Shown here piece by piece: positions 1 to 12,032 of a stretch of 42,249 nucleotides of DNA. Where the stretch lies: IMG/VR virus record IMGVR_UViG_3300021400_000028, positions 1-42,249 of that record. One strand, 5' to 3'. The notes under the pieces were generated by a model. The model was not told the DNA's origin. It did not search any database and worked only from the letters and a program-made list of their open reading frames with translations. The position numbers and the translations under genes were made by a program. Source of the stretch: a virus. Lineage: Duplodnaviria > Heunggongvirae > Uroviricota > Caudoviricetes. The first letter of the stretch is position 1. The number at the start of each line of letters is the position of its first letter.

Positions 1-98
1 TGTGAATTAACTTTAGTAGTCCACAAACCAGACTTGTGTCCGTAGGGACAGTCTGTTTTTGCAAATACTCCGTCTGATATGTATTTTATCTTTGCCAT
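1..98 (-). CDS. Hypothetical early protein, partial (runs off the window start)
   Basis: ATG at 98 lies one base after the TGA stop of the upstream gene; frame MAKIKYISDGVFAKTDCPYGHKSGLW... is open to the edge. Confidence 0.55.
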   Translation of the reverse strand, partial: MAKIKYISDGVFAKTDCPYGHKSGLWTTKVNS

Positions 99-99
99 A

Positions 100-393
100 T
101 CAATCCTCCCTTATTACGGTTTTATCAAGTTCGTAAAAGTGGCGAGCAAAATTCCTAATAGCAAGACATTGCTCTCCATTCATTGAGCCAAACGCATCCA
201 ATAATTTGGTCCTCTCGTTTTTTAATTCCTTTTCGAAATCCACCTCCGACTGCTCCTGCTGGAGAGAGGTGATAATGTCATTTTTTAACTCTTGAAGAAC
301 ACTTCTTCCAACCCAAACAGAGCTACTCAATCCCAAATCTTCAAGTTTGGCATCTATAAGTGCTATCAGTTTTTCCGCGTCAATATATTTCAT
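100..393 (-). CDS. Small hypothetical phage protein (MKYIDAEKL.. type), standard code with TGA stop
   Basis: ORF track 100..471; likely start is ATG 393 because the upstream part overlaps the 444..605 gene. Confidence 0.7.
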   Translation of the reverse strand: MKYIDAEKLIALIDAKLEDLGLSSSVWVGRSVLQELKNDIITSLQQEQSEVDFEKELKNERTKLLDAFGSMNGEQCLAIRNFARHFYELDKTVIRED

Positions 394-443
394 AATACTA
401 AATATGGTTTTCAAGTATTTCAAGCGCCTTTTTAAGACCGGCC

Positions 444-605
444 TTAAAGCCTTCTGTATAGGCACTTCCACTCATCACCGTGTACATTTTCGACTTTGAC
501 AATCTCATTAATTTGATATGAATCTGTCTTCTCGTTTAAAAATGGACTTAAAAGTCCAATAATAATTAATAAAATAAATAAAGCTATTATTATTGTATTT
601 CTCAT
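444..605 (-). CDS. Small membrane protein (53 aa)
   Basis: Manual translation MRNTIIIALFILLIIIGLLSPFLNEK...YRRL*, with an N-terminal hydrophobic helix; below the ORF-track cut-off. Confidence 0.6.
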   Translation of the reverse strand: MRNTIIIALFILLIIIGLLSPFLNEKTDSYQINEIVKVENVHGDEWKCLYRRL

Positions 606-708
606 AACATTTCAAAATTAAAAACCCACAATGCTAGAAAATTTGGTTGGCTTAATTGTATATCTGGTTTAACATATATACTTAAACATTATGGGTTTTA
701 AATAAAAA

Positions 709-734
709 CTACTTGTATCTCACGACAGAAGTAG
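709..734 (-). terminator. GUGA-tetraloop hairpin plus U-tract (copy 1)
   Basis: Minus strand CTACTT-CTGTC-GTGA-GATAC-AAGTAG followed by TTTTTATTT; 13-nt core identical to 7861-7873. Confidence 0.55.
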
Positions 735-789
735 TAAATAATTATGAAACGATTACCACATCTCTATCTTTCGATAGAGTGAGGCAATT

Positions 790-1256
790 TTTTACCACTA
801 TAGCTTTCGCTACCAACAATAAAATTTCATTACTCCACTCATACTTACATGTTTTTGGCTACTATTTTTGTAACTGCGGGTTTTTATATTTCAGACCAAT
901 CCCGTCTTAGATTTATGGACTTTAATAGTATGTTTTGATATTGTTGTTTGTAGTCTGGGACTGTATCTTGACCGTATTGAAATCTAGCTAGATTATCCAA
1001 CTCTTTCACAAGGAACTCAATCCTTGCCACCATCTTGAAGGATAAATTTCAACTTAGGCCCCTCCTGTATCTCGTCTCTACACACTGTCTAAGGTGTTAG
1101 TCGGGCCTGGATAACATTTAAACTCAGCTATTCCCCTTGTGAGTCCTATAACATTGGTTCGGTATAAGCATATAATATCAGAGGTATTCACCCCACACTC
1201 TTACGAGCAGCGACTTTGGACATAATATTACTTAGCTTCCACCGAATTAGGGAGGT
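790..1256 (-). ncRNA. Group I intron-like ribozyme core, intergenic and apparently degenerate or repurposed
   Basis: Minus strand elements in canonical order: P AATTCGGTGGAAGC (1235-1248), Q GCTTATACCGAACCA (1155-1169), R GTGTAGAGACGAG (1071-1083), S AAGATACAGTCC (958-969). Helices: P3 CCTCC/GGAGG, P4 TTCGGT/ACCGAA, P8 TTGAAAT/ATTTCAA, P9.0 ACTAC/GTGGT, plus a TAGC-GAAA-GCTA hairpin (801-812). Confidence 0.75.
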
Positions 1257-1260
1257 TATT

Positions 1261-1617
1261 TTATAGATTATTAAGCTCGTTATATCTACGAACTATTAAT
1301 TCACGTTGTGAACGTGATAATTTTGATTTCTTTTCCTGAATTAAATTATATTGGGTTTCAAGAATTACCCAAAAGAGACAACCCATTTCATCTAAACGAC
1401 GTGTATCTGTTTTAATTTTTGGATTGAGGGTTGTAAGAATAACATCATTTAAAGATAAAATTGGAAATACTGAATAATTTTCGCATATATCTTTAAATGT
1501 TAAATCCTTTTCAACTTCCAAATTCATGTTCTCAAGAATCTCATCGTTTCTTTCTTCTTTATCAAAGAAAATGATTCTATCGCTTGGGTTGTCTTTAAAG
1601 TGACATAAAACAAACAT
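1261..1617 (-). CDS. Hypothetical early protein
   Basis: 118-aa ORF in the minus-strand early gene run. Confidence 0.7.
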   Translation of the reverse strand: MFVLCHFKDNPSDRIIFFDKEERNDEILENMNLEVEKDLTFKDICENYSVFPILSLNDVILTTLNPKIKTDTRRLDEMGCLFWVILETQYNLIQEKKSKLSRSQRELIVRRYNELNNL

Positions 1618-1691
1618 AACAAATATTTAAAAAATACTCTAACCACTGACTACCAATCCCAAGCTGGGAACATGTTATAAGATACGTGTAG

Positions 1692-1952
1692 TCACATAGA
1701 TTTCAGAGCTGGAAGATTTTCGATTTCATTTATAAGTTCAATTAAATCTGTTTTTGATAAATAACCAACAGAATCATCCATAATTTCTTCTTTTAAAGGA
1801 GACATAGACAATTCATATGGAGCACCATATACATGTGCAGCAAGTTCACCTTTTAAGACATGAACTGTATATCCATTCTTTAAAAGGAGTGAGGCTTCTT
1901 GCGTTGTCTCACTCCCTTTATATGGATGAAATTCCAAATCTTTAAATTTCAT
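1692..1952 (-). CDS. Hypothetical early protein (MKFKDLEF...GYLS type)
   Basis: 86-aa ORF; TAATG overlap with the upstream gene; TGA stop. Confidence 0.75.
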   Translation of the reverse strand: MKFKDLEFHPYKGSETTQEASLLLKNGYTVHVLKGELAAHVYGAPYELSMSPLKEEIMDDSVGYLSKTDLIELINEIENLPALKSM

Positions 1953-2101
1953 TACTTACACATTCTATGGTTAAATGGTACTGCTGCATTTACTTTGCAG
2001 GGAAACCATTGTACTTGTTTCTGACGTTTTGTAGCACCACTTTTTTCTACAATTTCTACTTCTACAGTGCGCTTAATGCTGATTGTACGAGTCTTTTTCA
2101 T
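1952..2101 (-). CDS. Small basic protein (49 aa)
   Basis: MKKTRTISIKRTVEVE...RMCK*; ATGA overlap with the upstream gene and TAATG overlap with the downstream gene. Confidence 0.65.
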   Translation of the reverse strand: MKKTRTISIKRTVEVEIVEKSGATKRQKQVQWFPCKVNAAVPFNHRMCK

Positions 2102-2520
2102 TTGATTCTTGCGATTAATTCGATTGTGTGTCCATTTTGTTTAAAAGTTGTAATAACAAATTCTATTGCTGAAGAATTATTTTCTTTACTAACAACTTTT
2201 TCCTTTTTAGAAACTTTCTTCTGTTTATTGACATAAGACATTGCTTCAATGATTTTATCAACTAAAGTAATGTCTTTTGGATTATTCGGTGCAGAACAAC
2301 GAGTCCATTTGTTAGGATTGTCTTTATCTACACTGAAAATTTTCTGAAGATCAAATCCATCTACATCCTTTTTAAAGGTATGTGTGATTGCTTTTCTAAA
2401 AGTTTGAGCTGTATTTGCAGACAACCCAAGTTTAGAAGTTGCAACTGGATCCTCTCTTTCTACGAGTCTTGCTACTTGTGTGAATGCGGCTGCGATTTGG
2501 TTTTTGTTAAAGGTTCTCAT
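2098..2520 (-). CDS. Hypothetical early protein
   Basis: 140-aa ORF ending in a TGA that overlaps the next ATG. Confidence 0.7.
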   Translation of the reverse strand: MRTFNKNQIAAAFTQVARLVEREDPVATSKLGLSANTAQTFRKAITHTFKKDVDGFDLQKIFSVDKDNPNKWTRCSAPNNPKDITLVDKIIEAMSYVNKQKKVSKKEKVVSKENNSSAIEFVITTFKQNGHTIELIARIK

Positions 2521-2695
2521 AAAACGTGTTGTTGTACAATTCGTAAAAGTTCAAGAAAACTTCTTCTTTTGTAACACCAAGAGCAATAACCATATTATTA
2601 TTGTACTCGTAAGACATAACGTATTGCTCTTGGTGTATATAGTATGAAATCTTTAAAGAGTTAACTAATTGAATAGCTAATTCTAAATTATTCAT
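2507..2695 (-). CDS. Hypothetical protein
   Basis: 62-aa ORF overlapping both neighbours in operon fashion. Confidence 0.6.
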   Translation of the reverse strand: MNNLELAIQLVNSLKISYYIHQEQYVMSYEYNNNMVIALGVTKEEVFLNFYELYNNTFYENL

Positions 2696-3167
2696 AAAGA
2701 GGATTTAGTTTTTCAAGTAAATCCTTGAAATTATCCAAGAATTGTACAGCAAGTTGTTTTGTTTTGAAACTAAACACTCGATATGAAGCCAAAACCGTAT
2801 ACAACTCCCAATGTCCTTTATTAGATCTATTAAGGACATAAGTTTTTGAATCTCTAGAAGATTGTTTTGGACTCCATCCGTCATTATAATAATCACGAAG
2901 CATCATTAACTGACAAAGAGCAAGAATTGCTTCTGCCTTTTCTTTAGATGGGAGTGTGTTTTTATCAACATCTGTAAGACAATCGCTTTCATTTAGTGAA
3001 TTAATTTTACAAGTACTAGCAACGTAGCATTCATTACCAGTTATTTTATATATCTTACAAAACTCTTCCCAAGTTTTTGGCAATACTTTTTCTTTTGGAA
3101 CAATTTTATATTCAGACTCAGATACCTTTACAAGCTGATAACCTTCCGGAATTGTAATAGTTTCCAT
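2688..3167 (-). CDS. Hypothetical Bacteroidota-phage protein (LPKTWEEF ... QLMMLRDYYNDGW.P ... FLDNFKDLLE)
   Basis: 159-aa ORF; motif pattern familiar from Bacteroidota phage early genes. Confidence 0.75.
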   Translation of the reverse strand: METITIPEGYQLVKVSESEYKIVPKEKVLPKTWEEFCKIYKITGNECYVASTCKINSLNESDCLTDVDKNTLPSKEKAEAILALCQLMMLRDYYNDGWSPKQSSRDSKTYVLNRSNKGHWELYTVLASYRVFSFKTKQLAVQFLDNFKDLLEKLNPLYE

Positions 3168-3529
3168 ATTTTGTAAACTTTTTCGTTCTCAAAAATTATA
3201 AGTTTATTTGATACAATATCATCGTTACAACCTTTAAAGTAAGATGTTTTGGCCGGAATTATTGCAATATGTGTTCCATAATTAAAATTAGTATAACTGT
3301 GTATACCCTCATTAATCATAGGAACTATACGAATTTCATAGGTTGGTTTTAAATAATATTTATATTCTAACTTAGCAATTCCAAATATATTAAATTTTAC
3401 AGGAAACTGCATATATGGAGTAATATATCTATCGTTCAATTTAAATAAAGCTTTACCAACAAGAATATGTGATTTACTTGTTTTTGGAACTAAATCTAAA
3501 TGAATATTTCTATCAATTACAAGACACAT
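3128..3529 (-). CDS. MCLV-family hypothetical protein, paralog 1
   Basis: Likely start MCLV at 3529; shares GxHSY, AIIP...Y..G and IVSN.LIIFE with 3812..4231. Confidence 0.75.
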   Translation of the reverse strand: MCLVIDRNIHLDLVPKTSKSHILVGKALFKLNDRYITPYMQFPVKFNIFGIAKLEYKYYLKPTYEIRIVPMINEGIHSYTNFNYGTHIAIIPAKTSYFKGCNDDIVSNKLIIFENEKVYKIWKLLQFRKVISL

Positions 3530-3533
3530 TTTA

Positions 3534-3815
3534 CTATATTTTACCAGAACAAATTCTTTCACCTAAATGATTGAAAATTGTAATAAAATTACCTATTATA
3601 ATATATCTATAACGAATATTGTTAAATTGATCTCTTAATACATATATTGCAGATCCTTCACTCCAATCTTCATATTCAAATTTATTAAAGATCTTTTTAA
3701 AACTACGAAATAGTCTATTATTTAAAGAATTACGTTCTTTTAAAAGACAATAAACATACGTTATTGTGAATGCTGTAATAAAATTAATCAATAATATGAT
3801 TAAAAAAGTTTTCAT
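3534..3815 (-). CDS. Small membrane protein
   Basis: 93 aa with an N-terminal hydrophobic helix. Confidence 0.65.
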   Translation of the reverse strand: MKTFLIILLINFITAFTITYVYCLLKERNSLNNRLFRSFKKIFNKFEYEDWSEGSAIYVLRDQFNNIRYRYIIIGNFITIFNHLGERICSGKI

Positions 3816-4231
3816 AACTCAATAAATGTGTTTTGTTTACTGTATTTCTCAAAATCATCGTATGTTTCAAAAATAATGAGATTATTAGAAACAATTTGGT
3901 TATCTAATCCAATAAAGTATTCACTACCTTTTGGAATAATTGCCAAATGTTTTATAGTTCCTCTATCTGCATAATAATTACAAAGATGTATACATTCTTC
4001 TTCTTTATAATATGAATGTAATCCATAGCTAACTATAACACTGGTATTTTTTTCTAAAAAATTACCAATGTTACATATTCCATTAACAAAAGTAATTCGA
4101 AAACCATAAAATGGTGTATAACAAACTAGATCGCTATGACATAGTGCCTTATATACAAGAATATTATCTTCCGCAATACGTGGTTTATCTAATTCATGTG
4201 AATGATAAATAAGAGATTTTACTAGACACAT
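3812..4231 (-). CDS. MCLV-family hypothetical protein, paralog 2
   Basis: 139 aa; GLHSY, HLAIIPKGSEYFIG, IVSNNLIIFE; TGA stop overlaps the next ATG. Confidence 0.8.
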   Translation of the reverse strand: MCLVKSLIYHSHELDKPRIAEDNILVYKALCHSDLVCYTPFYGFRITFVNGICNIGNFLEKNTSVIVSYGLHSYYKEEECIHLCNYYADRGTIKHLAIIPKGSEYFIGLDNQIVSNNLIIFETYDDFEKYSKQNTFIEL

Positions 4232-4323
4232 AATTTAATATACTTCGCATTAAATTTAAAAGAGAAACCTCCGGCAAAATGTATAAAATCCGGAGGTTGT
4301 GCCCAACAAAAGAACCATACATT

Positions 4324-4662
4324 TTAAAAGAAATTGATAAGATCTAGAGAAGTAATCTTCATTCCTTTATTAGTTTGAATACGAAATAAACCTGAAGGAA
4401 GCAGTTTCATTTCGTAGATTTCATATAGATGCTTGAATAGTTTAGCACGAAGCTTTCCTTGACCTACATAGCCTTTGAAATCTTCTATAAATTCCTCATG
4501 ATTAAGTTCACGAAGATCACGAATGTTTTCAATTGGCCAAATAGTTAGGTTAGGGTGATCTTTCTTTAAATCTGAAATGACTGATGTAACTTCAGATGTC
4601 TTCACGTTAATTGAAGTAATGGAAAGACGATTAAACGGAGTGGATTGAATTAAGAGGTACAT
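4324..4662 (-). CDS. Hypothetical early protein
   Basis: 112-aa ORF followed by a hairpin at 4267-4298. Confidence 0.7.
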   Translation of the reverse strand: MYLLIQSTPFNRLSITSINVKTSEVTSVISDLKKDHPNLTIWPIENIRDLRELNHEEFIEDFKGYVGQGKLRAKLFKHLYEIYEMKLLPSGLFRIQTNKGMKITSLDLINFF

Positions 4663-4912
4663 AACTTTATGGTTTTAATTGTTAATAGTTGCCGTTAAAG
4701 GGAGGATGGTTCGATTTTTGATTGGATTGGATTTGAAGAAAAGGAAGGACGAGGAAATGGAACACTTCGCCCTTCCACACCATTAACACTAAAACCAAAT
4801 CATAACCAATCACACAAAATCGCTCAGAACTTTTCTATTCGGTCAGGAATGGAAAAATTAAAATATATTTACATGTACAGAGTATGATTTTATATCATTT
4901 TTTGTACAAAAA

Positions 4913-4944
4913 TTTGCAAAAATAAAAATTTATATTTATATTTG
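4913..4944 (+). promoter_or_regulatory. Bacteroidota primary-sigma promoter (-33 TTTG / -7 TAnnTTTG)
   Basis: TTTG 4913-4916, 20-nt spacer, TATATTTG 4937-4944; upstream of the iterons and Rep-like gene. Confidence 0.7.
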
Positions 4945-5016
4945 TATAGAAAACATTGATTATGATATTTAGCTCGCCTCGCGCGTATTAATTTACGAAG
5001 TAGTAAGTATAGTTAA

Positions 5017-5143
5017 TAAGTCTATAAGTCTATAAGTATATAAGTATAGTTTGGCACCTGAAAATGGCTTCTGCGCACCTGAAAATGGCTTCTGCGCACC
5101 TGGATTTTCATCCTGCGCACCTGAAAATTAAGTGTGCGCACCT
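5017..5143 (+). repeat. Iteron-like array plus AT-rich 8-mer repeats (putative replication origin)
   Basis: Four TAAGT(C/A)TA 8-mers (5017-5048), then GCACCT at 5054, 5075, 5096, 5117 and 5138 (exact 21-bp period); the first two 21-mers are identical (GCACCTGAAAATGGCTTCTGC). Confidence 0.8.
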
Positions 5144-5183
5144 ACATAAAAACTAACTTAAAACACTACAAAACTTTTTATTT

Positions 5184-6008
5184 ATGCAACATGCAGAAAT
5201 ACCAAATGTTTTAACGGAGTTAAAGTCAACAAATAACAAAACTCCATCACTTGAACCAGGAGACAAAGTTGTTTATGCTATTATAAGAATGCATATGAAT
5301 GAAACACGCACTTGTTTCCCATCTCAAGATTTAATTAAGAAGTACGCACATTGCGGACAGAAAAAAGTTGAAGATGCCATAAAACGTTTAGAAAAAGCCA
5401 AATTACTTAAAATTGGCAAAATTAAACTAGAAAATGGCAAATGGTCTAGATTATATACTATTCCCAAAACAGAATTTGATAAATCTTTTGAACGTTTTAC
5501 TCAGGATTTTCTAACAATGGACATTCCACTCCATTTAAAAGAATATATAATGGATCTACAAATATATATGTTCGTTCATCCAAATTCTAATTCTGCTGAT
5601 TTTAGCCAATCCAATCTAACGTTAGCCAAAAATACTGGATGAGATGTATCTCAAATAAATAAATTTGATAAACAATTAATTGAATTAGGAATAGAAAAAC
5701 AAGAACTATCTGGAAAGATTGATCAATCAGGATTACCTATAATGAAAAAGATTGTTAATTTAGACACAATTAATCAAGCCCAACTTTGAGTTCGAGCAGT
5801 AAACAATCAATTAAATGAAACTCAATTACAAGTTGATGAAGTAAACGATGCAGTAGATTCACTTCAAACAAAAGTGGATGATTTAACTCAAAGGGCTGCA
5901 ATACGAGATGAAATGATTGCAAAACAACAAGATGAAATTGAAAATCTTAAAAAATTACTTGTTGCTAATGGAATTGATATATCTCTTCAAAAAGAATATG
6001 AATTTTAA
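5184..6008 (+). CDS. Winged-helix (HTH_36-like) replication-initiator-like protein, 274 aa with TGA=Trp
   Basis: N-terminal VVYAIIRMH...CFPSQDLI...KVEDAIKRLEKAKLL wHTH; two in-frame TGA, after which the frame continues through a second HTH-like segment (LTLAKNTGWDVSQINK) and a coiled coil to TAA 6006-6008. Confidence 0.75.
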
Positions 6009-6080
6009 AAAAAATAACCTCCAGAGGAGCATCACACCCATCTGGAGGTCAAAAAACATAGCAAAGCTTCAGACAGCTTG

Positions 6081-6120
6081 GTGTCTTGGACTGGTTTCAT
6101 CCAATCCAAGACATTTTTTT
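6081..6120 (+). terminator. Intrinsic terminator
   Basis: TGTCTTGGA...TCCAAGACA stem followed by T7. Confidence 0.7.
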
Positions 6121-6121
6121 G

Positions 6122-6890
6122 TTTAGGCTGAGTCTTGACCTATACAATCACCATTTTCATCTCTTTGCGAGACTAGAACACATCCTTTTGGGATAGGTGA
6201 CACAGAGACGGATTCATAGGTTCCGCAACCACTACACTTAACGATATAAACTACTCCTTTCATTAGCTGTCCTTGCGAGTAAATGACATGCCTGCCAACC
6301 AGTTTAACTAATTGTTTCGCTTCACAGATTGCCTTGCGAGCTCACTGCGTCTCCATATTACAGGAGAATAACTCTGTTGTTGCTAAGTGTGCACAACACT
6401 TTTTGCTACTAAAATTCAACTTTTTGTAAAAATTAAAATTTTTGTAACAGATGACCTGATTAACCGTGTGGTTGTGCTTGAATAGAATGCAGCCTTTTGA
6501 GCTGTTTACCTATCAACACGGTTATGTTACTTGTCCGCCAAGACTTTCACTTTACTAATTGTTCGAACCTAAGATTTCTCTAATCTATAGACCGGCATGT
6601 CTATAGCACCAGCCACGGTGTAGGTCCACTAATTTTCATCATAGACGCTATAAGGATGGCTAATCCTGTTTGGCATCTAAGCAAGTATGTTTGTCCCTGT
6701 TACCAGGCAAGGAGAGATGGTCAATCCCTCCGTAACAACCTATCCACTCTGCCCGAGTGTACACCAGTCATTACTATGCATACTGTGGCTTTCTTATGAA
6801 CAGCATTTCTACTGCGCATCACCTCACTGTTAATGGTGACACTTTATCCTCTCACGAGTTTATTCTATCGACAAGAAGCCTGCCGTTACG
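6122..6890 (-). ncRNA. GOLLD-like giant structured RNA (~770 nt)
   Basis: ORF-free and richer in GC than its flanks; many hairpins including GNRA-type loops on the minus strand; two halves joined by an AT-rich linker (~6400-6445). Motif order (GATAAAGTG, ACACTCGGGCAGAGTGG, CTCAAAAGG, AAAAAGTGTT, GGAGTAGTT..AGTGGTT, CCCAAAAGG, terminal CTCAGCCT) matches my recollection of GOLLD-family sequences; not verified with a covariance model. Confidence 0.65.
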
Positions 6891-7328
6891 TGAAGACGTA
6901 AATAGAACCCCAGATTGATTTCACTCTTTCTGGGGTTTGTTGTTTTACAGGGAATAGGTTCATCACCCTGTGATGTAGTCTGAAGCCTGATCACTACTTC
7001 GGAGAGTTAGTTTAAAATGGACTCACAACCATACAACATAAAATAATAATGAAGTTGTTAATCGGTTACTCCAAGCCTAGCCGTTACTCAGAAGAAACCA
7101 CTTAAGGCTCTATTGCTGATTCACGTTACTGCAATATTACTCCAATCATGTTAGCCCGCATCATGCTTAGCGGGAGCCTTGGTTACCAAGCCCAGGATAA
7201 TGTAACTGTTGTATAGGATTCGCTACTCCTATTGGTCAGTCTCTCGTTTCCTCTTGAAACTACAAAGTCACCACAATATCTGTATTATAAGCCCAGGGTG
7301 TCAGCTAGTTAGTGTATGGCTAGCAAGC

Positions 7329-7439
7329 TTATTCCACTACATTCCCATATGTAAGCAACTGTGCTGCTTCATTAGAAGTAATAAGCCCAGAGGTGACTTC
7401 TGCACCTAAATCATCAATAAGATTTAATATCTCTTCCAT
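7329..7439 (-). CDS. Possible 36-aa peptide
   Basis: MEEILNLIDDLGAEVTSGLITSNEAAQLLTYGNVVE*; preceded by an AT-rich leader; overlaps a hairpin. Confidence 0.45.
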   Translation of the reverse strand: MEEILNLIDDLGAEVTSGLITSNEAAQLLTYGNVVE

Positions 7440-7483
7440 AGGGAATAATTTTAAATTAGAACTTTAGAAGAATATCACTTCTT

Positions 7484-7813
7484 CTAAAATTTGTTCGCTT
7501 CACGCTGGCAAATAAAGATTATTGCCTGTACCACATCAAAAGGAAGAATCTCTTTGTATGGTATAGCAATATCAATATCTACCCACTCTTCCTTCTCATT
7601 AGCTAAACAAAATGCCAACTTAGCACCTTGTTTATCTTTATAAGAAATTAGAGTCCATGAACCAACAACTAAATTATCCCTTTTGGATAGGATAATTCCA
7701 CATCTACCAAATGGATGCGATTCAACTACTACGAGTTGAGCATTACCATTTGCATAAATGCGATTGCAATTCATGATTTCACGAGCGGAACGGATGTTGA
7801 TGTTTTTGTTCAT
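7484..7813 (-). CDS. Hypothetical early protein
   Basis: 109-aa ORF with an AT-rich leader. Confidence 0.7.
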   Translation of the reverse strand: MNKNINIRSAREIMNCNRIYANGNAQLVVVESHPFGRCGIILSKRDNLVVGSWTLISYKDKQGAKLAFCLANEKEEWVDIDIAIPYKEILPFDVVQAIIFICQREANKF

Positions 7814-7853
7814 AATTTTCTTGGTTTTGGTTTAATAAAATAATAAATAAAAA

Positions 7854-7881
7854 CTCAGTCGTATCTCACGACAAGACTGAG
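7854..7881 (-). terminator. GUGA-tetraloop hairpin plus U-tract (copy 2)
   Basis: CTCAGTC-TTGTC-GTGA-GATAC-GACTGAG followed by TTTTTATTT. Confidence 0.55.
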
Positions 7882-8104
7882 AAACCGAACATGAAAAACA
7901 ACATCTGGAACCCTGAATTGATATCACTCTCATCAGGGTTAAAACTATTTCATTACATAGATTGTTCAGTACAATCTACAAAACTTTTGACTTCATATCT
8001 TGGTTTGTCGTCTATATTTCCTCAATATCACAATCCTCAATAACCATAAACATTCTCAAGGATTGGATCAGTAAGATAAAAACGACCTAAACTACTATCA
8101 ATTC

Positions 8105-8126
8105 AAAGGTCTCCGGAGAGACCTTT
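8105..8126 (-). terminator. Hairpin or terminator after 8140..8604
   Basis: AAAGGTCTC..GAGACCTTT inverted repeat. Confidence 0.55.
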
Positions 8127-8139
8127 GATTGTAATGAGT

Positions 8140-8604
8140 CTAGGATTCAAACTCAAGAACAGGATAAGTTACCATCCGCTCGACACCACCAAAGTTGCTC
8201 TTGCAGCGTTCGGTATTAACAACTTTAAGTGTCTTACCCAGAAGAGCAACACCAAGGTCATACGGATTATCAAACTTGTTGACAAAATCCGCAATCTTCG
8301 GGCTAATCAGATGTCCATCACCATTGAAGTCGGTGCGAGTGAAAGTACCCACGGCAATAGTACGATCCTTGCCGTTCACCTTAGCACCAAGATAGTACGT
8401 AACACGTACATCTTCACCTTCCTGCTGAGCCTGAGGCTGTTTGTACAACTCAACACTATCCCAAGGGAAAGTAATGGTTGCACCCATAGGCAACTGACTT
8501 ACACCAGTCAGATTAGCCTGCTTGCCTTCTTCTGCAGATACTTTTGAAACAGGACGCGCTTCCGATTCGCCGCGCATCCTAGGACGAATAAATTCGTTTG
8601 CCAT
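8140..8604 (-). CDS. GC-rich early protein, paralog of 9363..9848
   Basis: 154 aa; shares NGK, F.R..FNG, DL..L..GK and G..ER.V.Y.V patterns with 9363..9848. Confidence 0.8.
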   Translation of the reverse strand: MANEFIRPRMRGESEARPVSKVSAEEGKQANLTGVSQLPMGATITFPWDSVELYKQPQAQQEGEDVRVTYYLGAKVNGKDRTIAVGTFTRTDFNGDGHLISPKIADFVNKFDNPYDLGVALLGKTLKVVNTERCKSNFGGVERMVTYPVLEFES

Positions 8605-8793
8605 AATCTAAAAAATATTAAAAATTACACAAAATTGTGCTTCCTACAAAAAATATAAGGACTCGTTTACACCTTACTGTAGAGACTTTAAACTCACTCT
8701 ATCTTCATTACTGCATGATAGATGCCATCTCCTTTGTGCAGTAAACTAAACTGCCAAGATTGTTTTCTTTATACTCGATTCACACTTCGAGTC

Positions 8794-8848
8794 GCTGTTT
8801 CGTCTTAATTTGCAAAGACTCATCAGAGGACATCTACATCCTAACAGC
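8794..8848 (-). ncRNA. Type III hammerhead ribozyme
   Basis: Minus strand GCUGU-U^AGGAU-GUAGAU-GUCCU-CUGAUGA-GUCUU-UGCAAAUU-AAGAC-GAA-ACAGC: complete CUGANGA/GAAA core with three intact stems; GUU triplet, predicted cut between 8843 and 8842. Confidence 0.9.
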
Positions 8849-9338
8849 CTGGTTCTAAATATAAACCAGAAAGTTACCACGTCTTACACCATCGCACATA
8901 CAGTAAGTGGGACTGTATTGGTGGGCATCCTGGATTGTGCCAGGTCACTAAAATTTTAGCGTGCGAAGCCGAGACATTTCAATCGCCTATGAAATGCTAC
9001 TCTCCCAGAACCCTACTCCGACACAGTTATGCTGGTAGTTCACTGTGAAGCTGCTCCTGATTTTTTGAAATCATACACCAAGGAATAGAGCATACTCTCA
9101 GACTAGGAACAGAATCATCCTACCCTCTGCTCTATTGCGCATCCTTGGATAAAGCAAAATTATGTATACTCTTATGTGTTGGGCCAGGATAGGAGCCAAC
9201 TTTATACAGTATACCGTAGATACCGCTACGACGGAATTAAACATAAAATTTTAGCAGTATTTACTACTACTACATATTAGCATTGTCTTAGTCTCTATAT
9301 TGGAATTGTCTTAGTCTCCCTGTGTGAGAAGTAAAATA

Positions 9339-9366
9339 AAAAGTGGGGTAAACCCCCACTTTTTAT
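9339..9366 (-). terminator. Intrinsic terminator at the end of 9363..9848
   Basis: AAAAGTGGGG-TAAAC-CCCCACTTTT. Confidence 0.7.
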
Positions 9367-9848
9367 TTAACATCGAACACAGAGTATGCCACGGAGCGTT
9401 CTGCAGTTTGACCATACGGAACCTCCTTGTTGTAGATAATGTCCACGCAGACAATTTTCTTGCCTGCGTAGGCACCGCTCTTGTCAAGGACCGCATCGAG
9501 GTCACCAGCATCCCCACAGCCATTCAGCAACTGCTGGAACGGAGTGAGTTGCTTCATCTGCTCTTCGGTGAACCCGTTAAAGGGTCTCCGAAGGAAGATG
9601 CTGGCACTCACGCCACCTTCCACGGCCTTACCGTTGCGCGTGCCTTCGAAATAGGCATACTTACGGTCTTCATCGTGCTTCTTGCCGTTCCTGTCAGTCC
9701 AACCGCTCTCAATGGCGTACTTGCCAGTAAGCACAAATTCTGTGTCTTTTGCAACCTGTCCGGCGTTGCGACCGTTCACTCCCACGAGACTCCCCTCGCG
9801 AGCGAAAACACGCTCCATTGCCATATGTGTAATGAAATAGTTACGCAT
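9363..9848 (-). CDS. GC-rich early protein, paralog of 8140..8604
   Basis: 161 aa; visibly more GC-rich than the rest of the window; terminator at the stop codon. Confidence 0.8.
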   Translation of the reverse strand: MRNYFITHMAMERVFAREGSLVGVNGRNAGQVAKDTEFVLTGKYAIESGWTDRNGKKHDEDRKYAYFEGTRNGKAVEGGVSASIFLRRPFNGFTEEQMKQLTPFQQLLNGCGDAGDLDAVLDKSGAYAGKKIVCVDIIYNKEVPYGQTAERSVAYSVFDVK

Positions 9849-10098
9849 TGGTATAGTCTTAGTCTCGAAAATTTGAAAAATCAGACCCTCCCCCGGTCAA
9901 TGGATTTTCTGAATCGATTTCCCCATTCGCTAGGGCGGGGGTCTATATACATTAACACTTCTTACGTATGCATAACACACATATGTTTATAATCTATTTT
10001 GCCAACAACATGACAAATTTAACAAATGCTAACATATCTCTAATATTTTTAATTTCGCTAATTTTTATTAATTTTTTATACATCACCCGTCCTAAAAA

Positions 10099-10130
10099 TT
10101 TGGGAAATTAAATTATTTTTCGTATATTTG
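10099..10130 (+). promoter_or_regulatory. Bacteroidota primary-sigma promoter
   Basis: TTTG 10099-10102, 20-nt spacer, TATATTTG 10123-10130. Confidence 0.7.
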
Positions 10131-10167
10131 TAATGTAGGTTGAAGTTTAACTTAAAATAATAAATAT

Positions 10168-10582
10168 ATGAAAATAAACACAGAATTAATTTTTAGAGCC
10201 ATTTGCTCATCAACACACAATTTGTAAGAAATGTTATAACACATTAGATAGAAATCGAAGGTCTTATGCTGAAAGATTATATAAAAATTCTAAACATAAT
10301 TCAAAAAACTATAATGCACCATATGATTTAACAATGGAGTATATACAAGAATTATTAGAAAAACAAAACTACAAATGTGCATATTCAAGAATACCTTTTT
10401 CAAATGATAAAAAAGACAAATATACTTATCCAACAATAGATAGAATTGATTCTACAAAAGGTTATGTTAAGGGGAATGTTTGTATATGTACGCTTTTTGT
10501 TAATATAATGAAAAACAATGCAACAGTAGACCAATTCAAAGATATCATAACTAAAATATATAACAACAAAGACAACTTTTAA
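10168..10582 (+). pseudogene. HNH-type (endonuclease VII-like) homing endonuclease with a frameshifted 5' end
   Basis: Frame open from 10190 contains CKKC..., KCAYS, PTIDRIDSTKGYVKGNV and VNIMKN; the ATG behind the promoter (10168) is in another frame; first in-frame ATG is 10334. Confidence 0.65.
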
Positions 10583-10640
10583 TGAAGTTGTCTTTTTTGT
10601 ATATAACAAAAAAATCCTCAGCTATTGCTAAGGATTAAAA
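10568..10640. terminator. Pair of hairpins between convergent genes
   Basis: AAAGACAACTT..AAGTTGTCTTTTT and AATCCT..AGGATT. Confidence 0.6.
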
Positions 10641-12032
10641 TTATTTTCTAATATTAACAAAACCGTCTGGAACAATAGTGCCAACAAATGTATTACCTCA
10701 TGGAGCAGTTTTTCCAGAAATATTTGTATATGGAAAAGTAGTTTCCATTGTTCATGGTTTTCCTCCAATTAACGGTCCGACTTCAAAATTGGCAATTTTA
10801 CTATCAATTGCTTTTGTAATAGAATTTTTAGTAAGTTTATCTATAATATTATCAGCATATCTTGGAATTTCTACAAAATCAACATATGGCTCTCCATTGA
10901 TAACTGTAGATACATCTTTCACACCTGTACGATATATGTTTAATGGTCTATCTAATCACTTTGTTGTTTTACCAAGTATTGTCTTAGACTTATTACCCAT
11001 ATTACTTCAATATCCTTTATCATACATATAAGTACGTAATTTTTGTATTCTATCTCGTCATGTATCTGTACCAATATGTCTTTTTAATCGTTGATTAAGT
11101 CTATCAGAAATTACTCTATCACCAGAACGTTCAAATGGGTTCAAATCTCAAACATCCTTCATGTAGATATCTCCGTATTTATATAAATCTGTACCGGTAT
11201 TAATTTGATCAATAGGAAAATGAGCAACGTCATGTAAACCACCATGTGCGTGTGCTAAATAATCGCGTTTATTATCTATAAATACATGTGGATCATTAAT
11301 CTTCATCCCTAAAAATTTATCAATATTATAAGAATAAGTTCCATCTGCATTTTTAACATAAATCCCGTTTTTTGGAGTTTGTCCTGTGTATATAGCAAAA
11401 GCGTCTTCTCTTGCCAGTTTCATCATTTTTTGTTGATTTGGACGTGATTGTAATACACTTTTTATAGTTTCATCTTCTTTACGTGTCCCATTTCATACAG
11501 GTTTGTTATATTTTTTTTCTAGAAACATACTTTTTACAAACTCCTTACCACGACCAATTGGATCATCATAGCCATATGGAAATATTGTATTATAAGCGTG
11601 ATATCCACGATACGCTTTATTACCAATTTTTGCGGCTATTCTAACTGCGTCTCCAGCACCAATTAAATCCATACTATCTCCTAATCCAGATAATATTGCT
11701 TTACCATAATCGCCATTTTTTGTTAAACGAATTGTTTTAGATATACCATTATCTGTAGTAAGATTTCGTATTCCATCTGCAGTACCAACTATGTCTAATA
11801 TTCTCATTGCGGCAGGATTAGTAAAAACATACGGTGATAACGATACCGCTGTTGTAGCGAGTGTTGCAATTCCACGATCTTTATATATTTCATCTCTTTT
11901 TTCTTGTGTATCGGCAGCATTTGCTTGTTCTATGGTAGAATTTAAAATTCTTTCTCCAGCAGACTCTTCGCTTTGTGGTACATACTTACTAGATCAAGAA
12001 TTTAAACGTTGTAATCATTTTGGTATACCCAT
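10641..12032 (-). CDS. Modular polymorphic or cargo-like protein, 463 aa (TGA=Trp)
   Basis: One frame joins ORFs 11493..11807 and 11148..11426 through TGA only; Gly/Ala-rich helical N-half; C-terminal domain with HGG...YMKDVWDLNPF...EVGPLIGGKPW. Confidence 0.75.

What the first reader, a model, noticed from the sequence alone, without database searches (positions are those of the whole stretch)
750..9320. RNA-rich early region: group I-like core, GOLLD-like RNA, hammerhead and repeated hairpins on one strand
Seen: well over 2 kb of the standard-code early region is ORF-free but heavily base-paired, and the three recognisable RNA classes all lie on the minus (coding) strand among small genes. 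Known: hammerheads self-cleave; GOLLD RNAs are large phage-associated RNAs of unknown function, often near tRNAs. Inference: a long early transcript may be cut by the hammerhead and hairpin signals to release stable structured RNAs acting as scaffolds, decoys or sponges during host takeover. This is my best candidate for an undescribed system; co-function of the parts is unproven.
Basis: partly seen in the sequence, partly recalled or inferred. Interest (0 to 1): 0.85.

Follow-up and report, generated by a model that had tools for sequence, protein, structure and literature searches.

The report
Phage island of swappable RNA genes
A large rumen phage carries a cluster of at least six folded non-coding RNAs: a GOLLD-type giant RNA, a self-cutting hammerhead, a splicing-intron descendant that has lost its splicing parts, and three uncatalogued RNAs. 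Its relatives gain and lose them as separate modules, so this is a mix-and-match RNA island rather than one machine.

Summary
All three named RNAs are real and lie on the minus strand.
- GOLLD-like RNA, 6124-6888: below Rfam's cut-off, but 32 of 66 model pairs covary.
- Intact type III hammerhead, 8792-8850.
- Group I core, 750-1257.

Three uncatalogued conserved RNAs lie among them: A (8851-9235), B (8647-8792) and a pseudoknotted C (7042-7246; 17 of 32 pairs covary). Rumen metatranscriptome contigs cover all of them.

The one-transcript, one-system reading fails. An opposite-strand Rep/iteron unit and three terminator-like hairpins split the region. Relatives keep a fixed scaffold but fill two slots with different RNA sets.

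The processing idea gains support: relatives lacking the hammerhead carry an HDV-like pseudoknot at the same place, just 3' of RNA A.

The group I RNA is not simple decay. A distant phage shares its loss of P1/P2, loss of the canonical terminal G, altered P7 and compensated extra 3' hairpin, which points to a domesticated, non-splicing RNA class. The scan noted exon-less group I RNAs and phage RNA islands before, on other DNA. Function (decoy or scaffold) is inferred only.

The parts
703..735 (-). Terminator-like hairpin (GUGAGA loop, U-run) closing the left unit
   Evidence: the same hairpin occurs at about 7850 and in L003, L031
750..1257 (-). Free-standing group I-derived RNA: P3-P9 core, no P1/P2, A-run where the terminal G should be, altered P7, extra 3' GAAA hairpin (762-779), palindromic loop in the P8 extension
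   Evidence: RNA contigs 838-1292 and 1062-1484
1261..4662 (-). Run of small standard-code ORFs upstream of the group I-derived RNA (two match phrog_13450)
4913..4944 (+). Bacteroidetes-type host promoter for the Rep gene
   Evidence: consensus from own knowledge
5054..5143 (+). Five iteron-like sites at exact 21-bp spacing
5184..6008 (+). Replication-initiator-like HTH_36 gene (274 aa under code 4) that splits the region
6005..6051 (-). Intrinsic terminator (11-bp stem, U8 tail) downstream of the GOLLD-like RNA
6124..6888 (-). GOLLD-like giant RNA of about 765 nt: covarying 5' domain, AT-rich linker, Rfam-matching 3' region (6125-6521)
   Evidence: RNA contigs 6281-6883
6904..6937 (-). Repeated hairpin with a GAGUGA(A/U)AUC-type loop (further copies near 7480 and 7929; frequent in relatives)
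7042..7246 (-). RNA C: uncatalogued pseudoknotted RNA of about 205 nt, 10 homologues
   Evidence: RNA contig 6975-7347
7329..7439 (-). Conserved 36-codon ORF
   Evidence: called in L022-L026; about 90% DNA identity in L002 and L030
7484..7813 (-). 109-aa ORF, no family
7846..7881 (-). Terminator-like hairpin (GUGAGA loop, U-run)
8140..8604 (-). P154, conserved scaffold gene; paralogue of P161; weak single-strand-binding-protein-like fold
8647..8792 (-). RNA B: uncatalogued conserved element of about 145 nt (also in L002 and L005, where it lies before A)
   Evidence: only three distinct lineages, structure not settled
8792..8850 (-). Type III hammerhead; predicted cut after GUU, between 8843 and 8842
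8851..9235 (-). RNA A: uncatalogued multi-branched RNA of about 385-520 nt whose ends pair with each other
   Evidence: RNA contigs of two studies stop at 9254/9255
9285..9318 (-). Two copies of an 11-nt box (third copy at 9856-9866); putative phage early promoter or protein-binding site
   Evidence: the exact box occurs only three times in the 170-kb genome; same layout in all relatives
9320..9382 (.). Long hairpin, probable terminator after P161
9363..9848 (-). P161, conserved scaffold gene upstream of the finding

Best explanation
This is a modular non-coding-RNA island beside the replication origin of a 170-kb, TGA-recoded rumen phage (probably a Zeta-like crAss phage). SHOWN: a fixed scaffold (box, P161, hairpin, box-box, slot 1, P154, slot 2) is filled by different sets of folded RNAs in different relatives; each RNA keeps its own helices; RNA libraries hold them. 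INFERRED: there are about four transcription units, not one. The unit starting near 9255 yields A-hammerhead-B-P154. The hammerhead cuts between 8843 and 8842, giving RNA A a defined 3' end and freeing the B-P154 message; other lineages use an HDV-like motif for the same job. C and the GOLLD-like RNA come from a further unit ending at the 6005-6051 terminator; by analogy the GOLLD-like RNA assembles into an RNA-only cage. The group I-derived RNA is a former tRNA intron kept as a stable, non-splicing folded RNA at the 3' end of a separate operon, possibly dimerising through its palindromic loop. The most likely shared role (about 35% on its own) is as abundant, nuclease-resistant decoys or scaffolds that bind host RNA-binding, decay or defence proteins early in infection. 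Each is an accessory 'RNA moron', and none needs the others.
For: Scaffold and mosaic slots across about 15 loci. Covariation: GOLLD model helices 99% paired, 32/66 pairs changed on both sides, against 34-42% paired when slid; 5' part 63/127; C 95.6% paired, 17/32, pseudoknot 100%; A 26/66. Hammerhead core complete and stem I compensated in relatives. HDV-like motif starts 3-5 nt after A in L005, L008, L013, L016, and 12-14 nt after GOLLD in L005, L013. The group I class is shared by the window and L077 (78% core identity, 33% in variable parts, same R/S signature, no P1/P2) and by G002. Contigs with no differences from the window cover the RNAs in metatranscriptomes of up to three studies. 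Terminators and the convergent Rep unit.
Against: No stranded reads or end maps: the runs are contigs, which cannot show strand, ends or level. Cleavage was not observed; the RNA contigs stop at 8823 and 8826, 16-19 nt short of the predicted cut, and one has a loose end. The HDV-like motif has no Rfam hit and lacks the usual G1. GOLLD and the free group I RNA occur together, in the same order, in both this phage and G005, which is compatible with some linkage. Some loci are short, so a few absences are unknown (L016, L033). Homologue numbers are small (3-10) and related sequences inflate the shuffle test. No evidence bears on targets or binding partners.
Confidence: 0.62

Rival explanations
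1. One reading: one long early transcript is processed into a set of co-functioning RNAs, an undescribed multi-RNA system.
For: All RNAs are on one strand in one region. A ribozyme-like element always follows RNA A. GOLLD and the free group I RNA co-occur in order in two distant phages. Two paralogous, weakly SSB-like proteins are embedded and could be partners.
Against: The opposite-strand Rep unit with its host promoter and three terminator-like hairpins break the region. RNA content is mosaic and does not follow protein identity. Complete genomes G001 and G002 have C but no GOLLD match.
Confidence: 0.12
2. The island is a landing zone for selfish or neutral RNA elements (intron relics, mobile ribozymes, GOLLD) that recombine into a tolerant region and give the phage no benefit.
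For: Patchy distribution and order swaps (B before A in L005). Zeta-type phages are described as heavily invaded by mobile elements under weak selection (PMC7886860). The group I RNA descends from tRNA introns.
Against: None of the RNAs encodes or neighbours a mobility enzyme. Helices are kept by compensatory change over long distances. The group I class lacks the parts needed to splice or home, yet is conserved.
Confidence: 0.16
3. The RNAs act in cis: A, B and the hammerhead form a regulatory leader for P154 (for example autoregulation by an SSB-like protein), and C, GOLLD and the hairpins help control the neighbouring replication origin.
For: A-hammerhead-B lie 5' of P154, and RNA contigs join B to P154 (7985-8826). 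The island adjoins the Rep/iteron unit in most relatives. Phage gp32 autoregulates through a leader pseudoknot (cited in PMC10690425).
Against: P154 has no such leader in L003, L006, L030, L031, L033, and other ORFs lie between A and P154 in L013, L016, L027. C has no constant downstream gene. The SSB-like fold is weak (Z 4.2 and 2.9).
Confidence: 0.1

Closest known systems
GOLLD RNA (Rfam RF02032; Kretsch et al. 2025, PMC12286853)
   Same: About 770 nt against 'many exceeding 800'; phage-encoded; conserved 3' region, divergent 5' region, variable linker; model helices pair and covary; the G005 homologue lies upstream of four tRNAs.
   Different: 74-87 bits against a gathering score of 150; rumen phage with Bacteroidetes-type promoters; no tRNA within this window; 3' end set by a terminator here and by an HDV-like motif in relatives; cage formation untested.
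Type III hammerhead ribozyme (RF00008)
   Same: Three stems, complete core, NUH triplet, compensated stem I in relatives.
   Different: GUU triplet; 37 bits against 48.5; always fused 3' of an uncatalogued large RNA.
Group I introns in tRNA anticodon loops (cyanobacterial tRNA-Leu(UAA) type; paralogues in tRNA-Leu of this genome, tRNA-Gln of L006 and a tRNA of G001)
   Same: P3, P4, P8, P9.0 and the G-binding G-C pair are kept; 80-84% core identity to the Leu-type copies.
   Different: No exons, no P1/P2, A-run instead of the terminal G, a G-A mismatch and shifted pair in P7, an extra conserved 3' hairpin.
Theta ribozymes (minimal HDV-like ribozymes at phage tRNA 3' ends; Kienbeck et al. 2024, PMC10879173)
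   Same: A small self-cleaving RNA placed within about 5 nt of the 3' end of a stable RNA in a recoded gut phage; the relatives' motif has the nested double-pseudoknot layout.
   Different: The client is a large non-tRNA RNA (A or GOLLD); in this window the slot is held by a hammerhead; the relatives' motif starts P1 with C, has a 7-nt J1/4, and has no Rfam hit.
Zeta-group crAss-like phages (Yutin et al. 2021, PMC7886860)
   Same: 145-192 kb genome size, TGA read as Trp in part of the genome, group I introns, Bacteroidetes-type promoters.
   Different: Rumen rather than human gut; the passages I read describe no such RNA island; marker genes were not confirmed here.

Membership tests
GOLLD RNA | Match to RF02032 at the gathering score (150 bits) | tested here: not met
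   74 bits, E 4e-18, model 1-416; homologue 87 bits
GOLLD RNA | Model helices present and covarying | tested here: met
   99% paired, 32/66 pairs with double changes
GOLLD RNA | About 800 nt, two domains with a variable linker | tested here: met
   Conserved span 6124-6888 with AT-rich linker
GOLLD RNA | Often near a tRNA island | tested here: inconclusive
   No tRNA in the window; tRNAs follow it in G005 and L005
GOLLD RNA | Forms an RNA-only multimer cage | not testable with these tools
   Needs cryo-EM or mass photometry
Type III hammerhead | Conserved core, three stems, NUH triplet | tested here: met
Type III hammerhead | Rfam gathering score (48.5 bits) | tested here: not met
   37 bits, E 3e-6 to 4e-5
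Type III hammerhead | Self-cleavage | not testable with these tools
   Contig ends at 8823 and 8826 are only suggestive
Group I intron | P3-P9 core with G-binding G-C pair in P7 | tested here: met
   one P7 pair is G-A, shared with L077
Group I intron | P1 with U-G pair, P2, and a 5' exon | tested here: not met
   The core starts right after a stop codon; P2 is absent in the window and L077. A hairpin with a U-G pair inside the ORF end (1274-1294) has no counterpart in L077
Group I intron | Terminal G two bases after P9.0, then a 3' exon | tested here: not met
   A-run in the window, L077 and G002 against G in the tRNA introns; a G follows a second P9.0-like strand at 750
Group I intron | Splices out of a host RNA | tested here: inconclusive
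   No splice joint for the window's own sequence; RNA contigs bridge the ORF and the core; contigs drop rare forms
HDV-like/theta ribozyme (motif in relatives, not in the window) | Nested double pseudoknot P1-P2-P3-P4 | tested here: met
   Seven copies; P1 6-7 bp, P2 5-8 bp and P3 all pair, with changes on both sides
HDV-like/theta ribozyme (motif in relatives, not in the window) | G1 at the cleavage site; catalytic C first in J4/2; Rfam match | tested here: not met
   P1 starts with C; a C lies in J4/2 but not clearly first; no Rfam hit
Zeta crAss-like phage | Marker-gene phylogeny (terminase, capsid, portal) | tested here: inconclusive
   Size, code and introns fit; PHROG gave no marker; a structural-block protein hits only unannotated human-faecal phages at about 41%

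The most novel reading that the evidence does not exclude
The 750-1257 RNA belongs to a new class of domesticated group I RNAs that lost the splice-site helices and the canonical terminal G, retuned the guanosine-binding helix P7, gained a 3' hairpin, and works as a stable (possibly dimeric or circular) ligand-binding RNA. Together with RNAs A and C it is part of a ribozyme-trimmed, swappable RNA toolkit that the phage expresses first, from its own promoter box, to neutralise host defences.
Probability: 0.25. Interest if true: 0.88.

Novelty: new variant of a known kind. Interest (0 to 1): 0.68.

Why it matters
GOLLD function is a long-standing open question. Here it can be compared among close relatives that have or lack it, and in samples where phage RNA is present. 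The locus adds three uncatalogued RNAs (C is compact, pseudoknotted and rich in invariant bases, like a ribozyme or aptamer) and a candidate HDV-like variant. Two unrelated ribozyme folds in the same slot would extend the theta-ribozyme idea from tRNAs to large non-coding RNAs. An exon-less group I class with a conserved change at the G-binding helix would be a natural case of a ribozyme turned into something else, testable in vitro in a few weeks.

Tried and rejected
Rfam at gathering scores: nothing. Rfam at E<=10 on A, B, C and on the HDV-like motif: nothing relevant. RF00028 misses both the window RNA and the tRNA-Leu intron, so its silence is uninformative. Alternative genetic codes do not explain the gaps. 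Folding z-scores do not separate the RNAs from ORFs. Curated phages hold only a short hammerhead-like match. Protein-seeded and exact-motif scans of viral contigs failed; two motif scans worked. Bacterial-genome hits to the C motif were chance. Twister, pistol, hatchet, fluoride-riboswitch and permuted group II readings of A, B and C were considered from memory and dropped: topology differs and there is no Rfam support. 'Decayed pseudogene' for the group I RNA was my first reading and was rejected after L077. Structure searches for P154 and P161 gave no confident fold (best Z 4.2 and 2.9). Contig depths in RNA runs are higher over the RNAs than over neighbouring ORFs, but the tool warns that this is a poor measure, so it is not used as evidence of level; uncovered stretches prove nothing. 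The supplement of the 10,000-candidate viral RNA survey (PMC10690425) is not held, so overlap with its short candidates is not excluded. Literature searches for these combinations found nothing.
Full report
Context. The window is the first 42 kb of a complete 170,249-bp phage record with terminal repeats. Code 4 raises coding cover from 48% to 84%, so TGA is read as Trp in many genes, while the minus-strand genes of 1261-9848 use the standard code. Size, recoding and group I introns fit the Zeta group of crAss-like phages (PMC7886860), but I did not confirm marker genes. The sequence occurs in sheep, goat and bovine gut runs.

Check of the observation. About 3.5 kb of 750-9320 is non-coding under both codes. 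No Rfam family reaches its cut-off. Below it, GOLLD matches 6125-6521(-) over the whole model (74 bits, E 4e-18) and Hammerhead_3 matches 8792-8850(-) (37 bits, E 4e-5). Folding energy alone does not mark the region: GOLLD scores z -3.6, but A, B, C and the group I RNA score -0.3 to -1.5, and one ORF scores -3.5. Comparative evidence was therefore needed.

Relatives. Homologues of the 154-aa protein at 8140-8604 and the 161-aa protein at 9363-9848 gave about 15 loci at 45-100% identity. Two motif scans added IMG/VR records G001-G005. The two proteins are paralogues (profile probability 88%) with confident models but only weak SSB-like matches.

GOLLD-like RNA. Conservation runs from 6888 to 6124, about 765 nt, in L005, L012, L013, L024 and G005. 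Helices taken from the Rfam model are 99% paired, and 32 of 66 pairs change on both sides, against 34-42% paired when slid. A consensus fold of the 5' part shows 63 of 127. This matches the published picture of a conserved 3' region, a divergent 5' region and a variable linker (PMC12286853). It works like GOLLD and is very probably a divergent member, but it fails the score test. An 11-bp stem with eight U follows it. In G005 it precedes four tRNAs.

Hammerhead and its substitute. The core is complete, the triplet is GUU, and the predicted cut lies between 8843 and 8842; stem I is compensated in L002, L026 and L027. It directly follows RNA A in every locus that covers both. Where A occurs without it (L005, L008, L013, L016), a different motif starts 3-5 nt after A. 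It has a 7-bp P1, a covarying pseudoknot, a 3-bp P3 with a 7-nt loop, a variable P4 and a C-containing joiner, which is the HDV layout. The same motif sits 12-14 nt after GOLLD in L005 and L013 and just before GOLLD in G005. It lacks G1 and an Rfam hit, so I do not file it as HDV-like. The parallel with theta ribozymes, which cut at tRNA 3' ends in recoded gut phages (PMC10879173), is close.

A (8851-9235) occurs in six lineages, has paired ends and shows 26 of 66 pairs covarying. B (8647-8792) occurs in three lineages and changes place in L005. C (7042-7246) has ten homologues, including complete genomes G001 (two copies) and G002; 95.6% of cells pair, 17 of 32 pairs covary, and a 5-bp pseudoknot holds in all ten with three sequence versions. 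None matches Rfam.

Group I-derived RNA. It is a paralogue of the intron in this genome's tRNA-Leu(UAA); the same family interrupts tRNA-Gln in L006 and a tRNA in G001. The window copy begins four bases after a stop codon, lacks P1/P2, has an A-run where the terminal G belongs, and has a G-A mismatch in P7, while P3, P4, P8 and P9.0 are kept with structure-preserving changes. I first read this as decay. However, L075/L077 (G004/G005) hold a copy that is 78% identical in the core and 33% in the variable parts, yet shares the missing P1/P2, the same P7 strands, the A-run and an extra 3' GAAA hairpin with two compensated pairs. G002 has an intermediate form with P1/P2 and a paired P7 but the same 3' end, just upstream of an intron-less tRNA-Leu. 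L030 has a separate exon-less copy. Across the family, one loop region is a perfect 8-base palindrome in four different versions, the pattern that marks intermolecular kissing in OLE and GOLLD (PMC12286853). The scan has noted exon-less group I RNAs in other jumbo phages (e1-5381529, e1-5321936, e1-5321945); I did not test those.

Expression. Three rumen metatranscriptomes and the probable source DNA run were laid on 1-12000. Contigs with no differences from the window cover 838-1484, 6281-6883, 6975-7347, 7985-8826 and 8894-9255. Contigs of two studies stop at 9254 and 9255, where DNA runs on, a weak hint of a start just downstream of the 11-nt boxes. Contigs cannot show strand, ends or level, and DNA can be present in RNA libraries. 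Back-joints seen only in RNA runs (793 to 1257) carry other P2 sequences and look like full-length circles of related introns; one joint from 755 to 1257 has depth 2.3 and may be an error.

One system? No. A plus-strand Rep gene with its own Bacteroidetes-type promoter and five 21-bp-spaced sites separates the group I RNA from the rest, and terminator-like hairpins lie at about 700, 6010, 7850 and 9350. Across relatives the scaffold is fixed, but slot 1 holds A-hammerhead-B, B-A, A, A-hammerhead, ORFs or nothing, and slot 2 holds C plus GOLLD, C, GOLLD or neither, without following protein identity. No host-type promoter was found for the minus-strand units in 600-10000; the box, present only three times in the genome, is the candidate phage promoter.

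Mechanism and verdict. Shown: six conserved RNA elements, five with pair-level support (B's fold is unsettled), their modular exchange, and their presence in RNA libraries. Inferred: about four transcription units; ribozyme-defined 3' ends for A (and for GOLLD in relatives); cage formation by the GOLLD-like RNA; a non-splicing, perhaps dimeric group I RNA; and decoy or scaffold roles early in infection (about 35%). The island as a whole is a new variant of known phage RNA clusters. Its new parts are RNAs A, B and C, the substitute pseudoknot, and the exon-less group I class. Interest 0.68.

Noticed in passing
L005 3118, L008 1350, L013 3319 and 5543, L016 4960, L005 5164, L080 1433: Uncatalogued HDV-like double-pseudoknot motif that replaces the hammerhead 3' of RNA A and flanks GOLLD; absent from this genome.
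   Followed up: partly
window about 985-996(-); G000 about 168115; L061, L075, L006, L060: Palindromic 8-mer in the P8 extension of this intron family, in four different palindromic versions; possible dimer-forming kissing loop in tRNA introns as well.
   Followed up: partly
G000 167935-168660(-); L006 17564-18156; L060 10913-11424: One group I intron family inserted in the anticodon loops of different phage tRNAs (Leu UAA, Gln UUG, and a third); the G000 copy has a large insertion before P2.
   Followed up: partly
table 5c, joints 1257 to 793, 788 and 755: RNA-only back-joints consistent with full-length circles of related introns; one has an A-run and no G at the junction.
   Followed up: no
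L030 17750-18260: Independent exon-less group I copy closed by complementary non-tRNA flanks; terminal G kept, guide G lost.
   Followed up: partly
L002 6770-6880, L031 2950-3050, L060 5789-5999: Shorter or divergent versions of RNA C sharing its 3' half.
   Followed up: no
window 9285-9318 and 9856-9866: An 11-nt box found only in front of P161 and slot 1, conserved in all relatives; candidate promoter for a phage RNA polymerase.
   Followed up: partly
window 7900-8140(-): Conserved structured 3' region behind P154 (long hairpins, z about -5; similar in most relatives).
   Followed up: no
G000 about 142050-142270(-): A second, compact group I-like sequence in a tRNA-rich region, not called by ARAGORN.
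   Followed up: no
G000 whole genome: ARAGORN reports no tRNA with a UCA anticodon although TGA is read as Trp.
   Followed up: no
L006 15849-17516: TROVE-domain (Ro60-like) gene directly before the intron-bearing tRNA-Gln in a relative.
   Followed up: no
L027 3474-3530: Hammerhead variant with C in place of U at core position 4.
   Followed up: no
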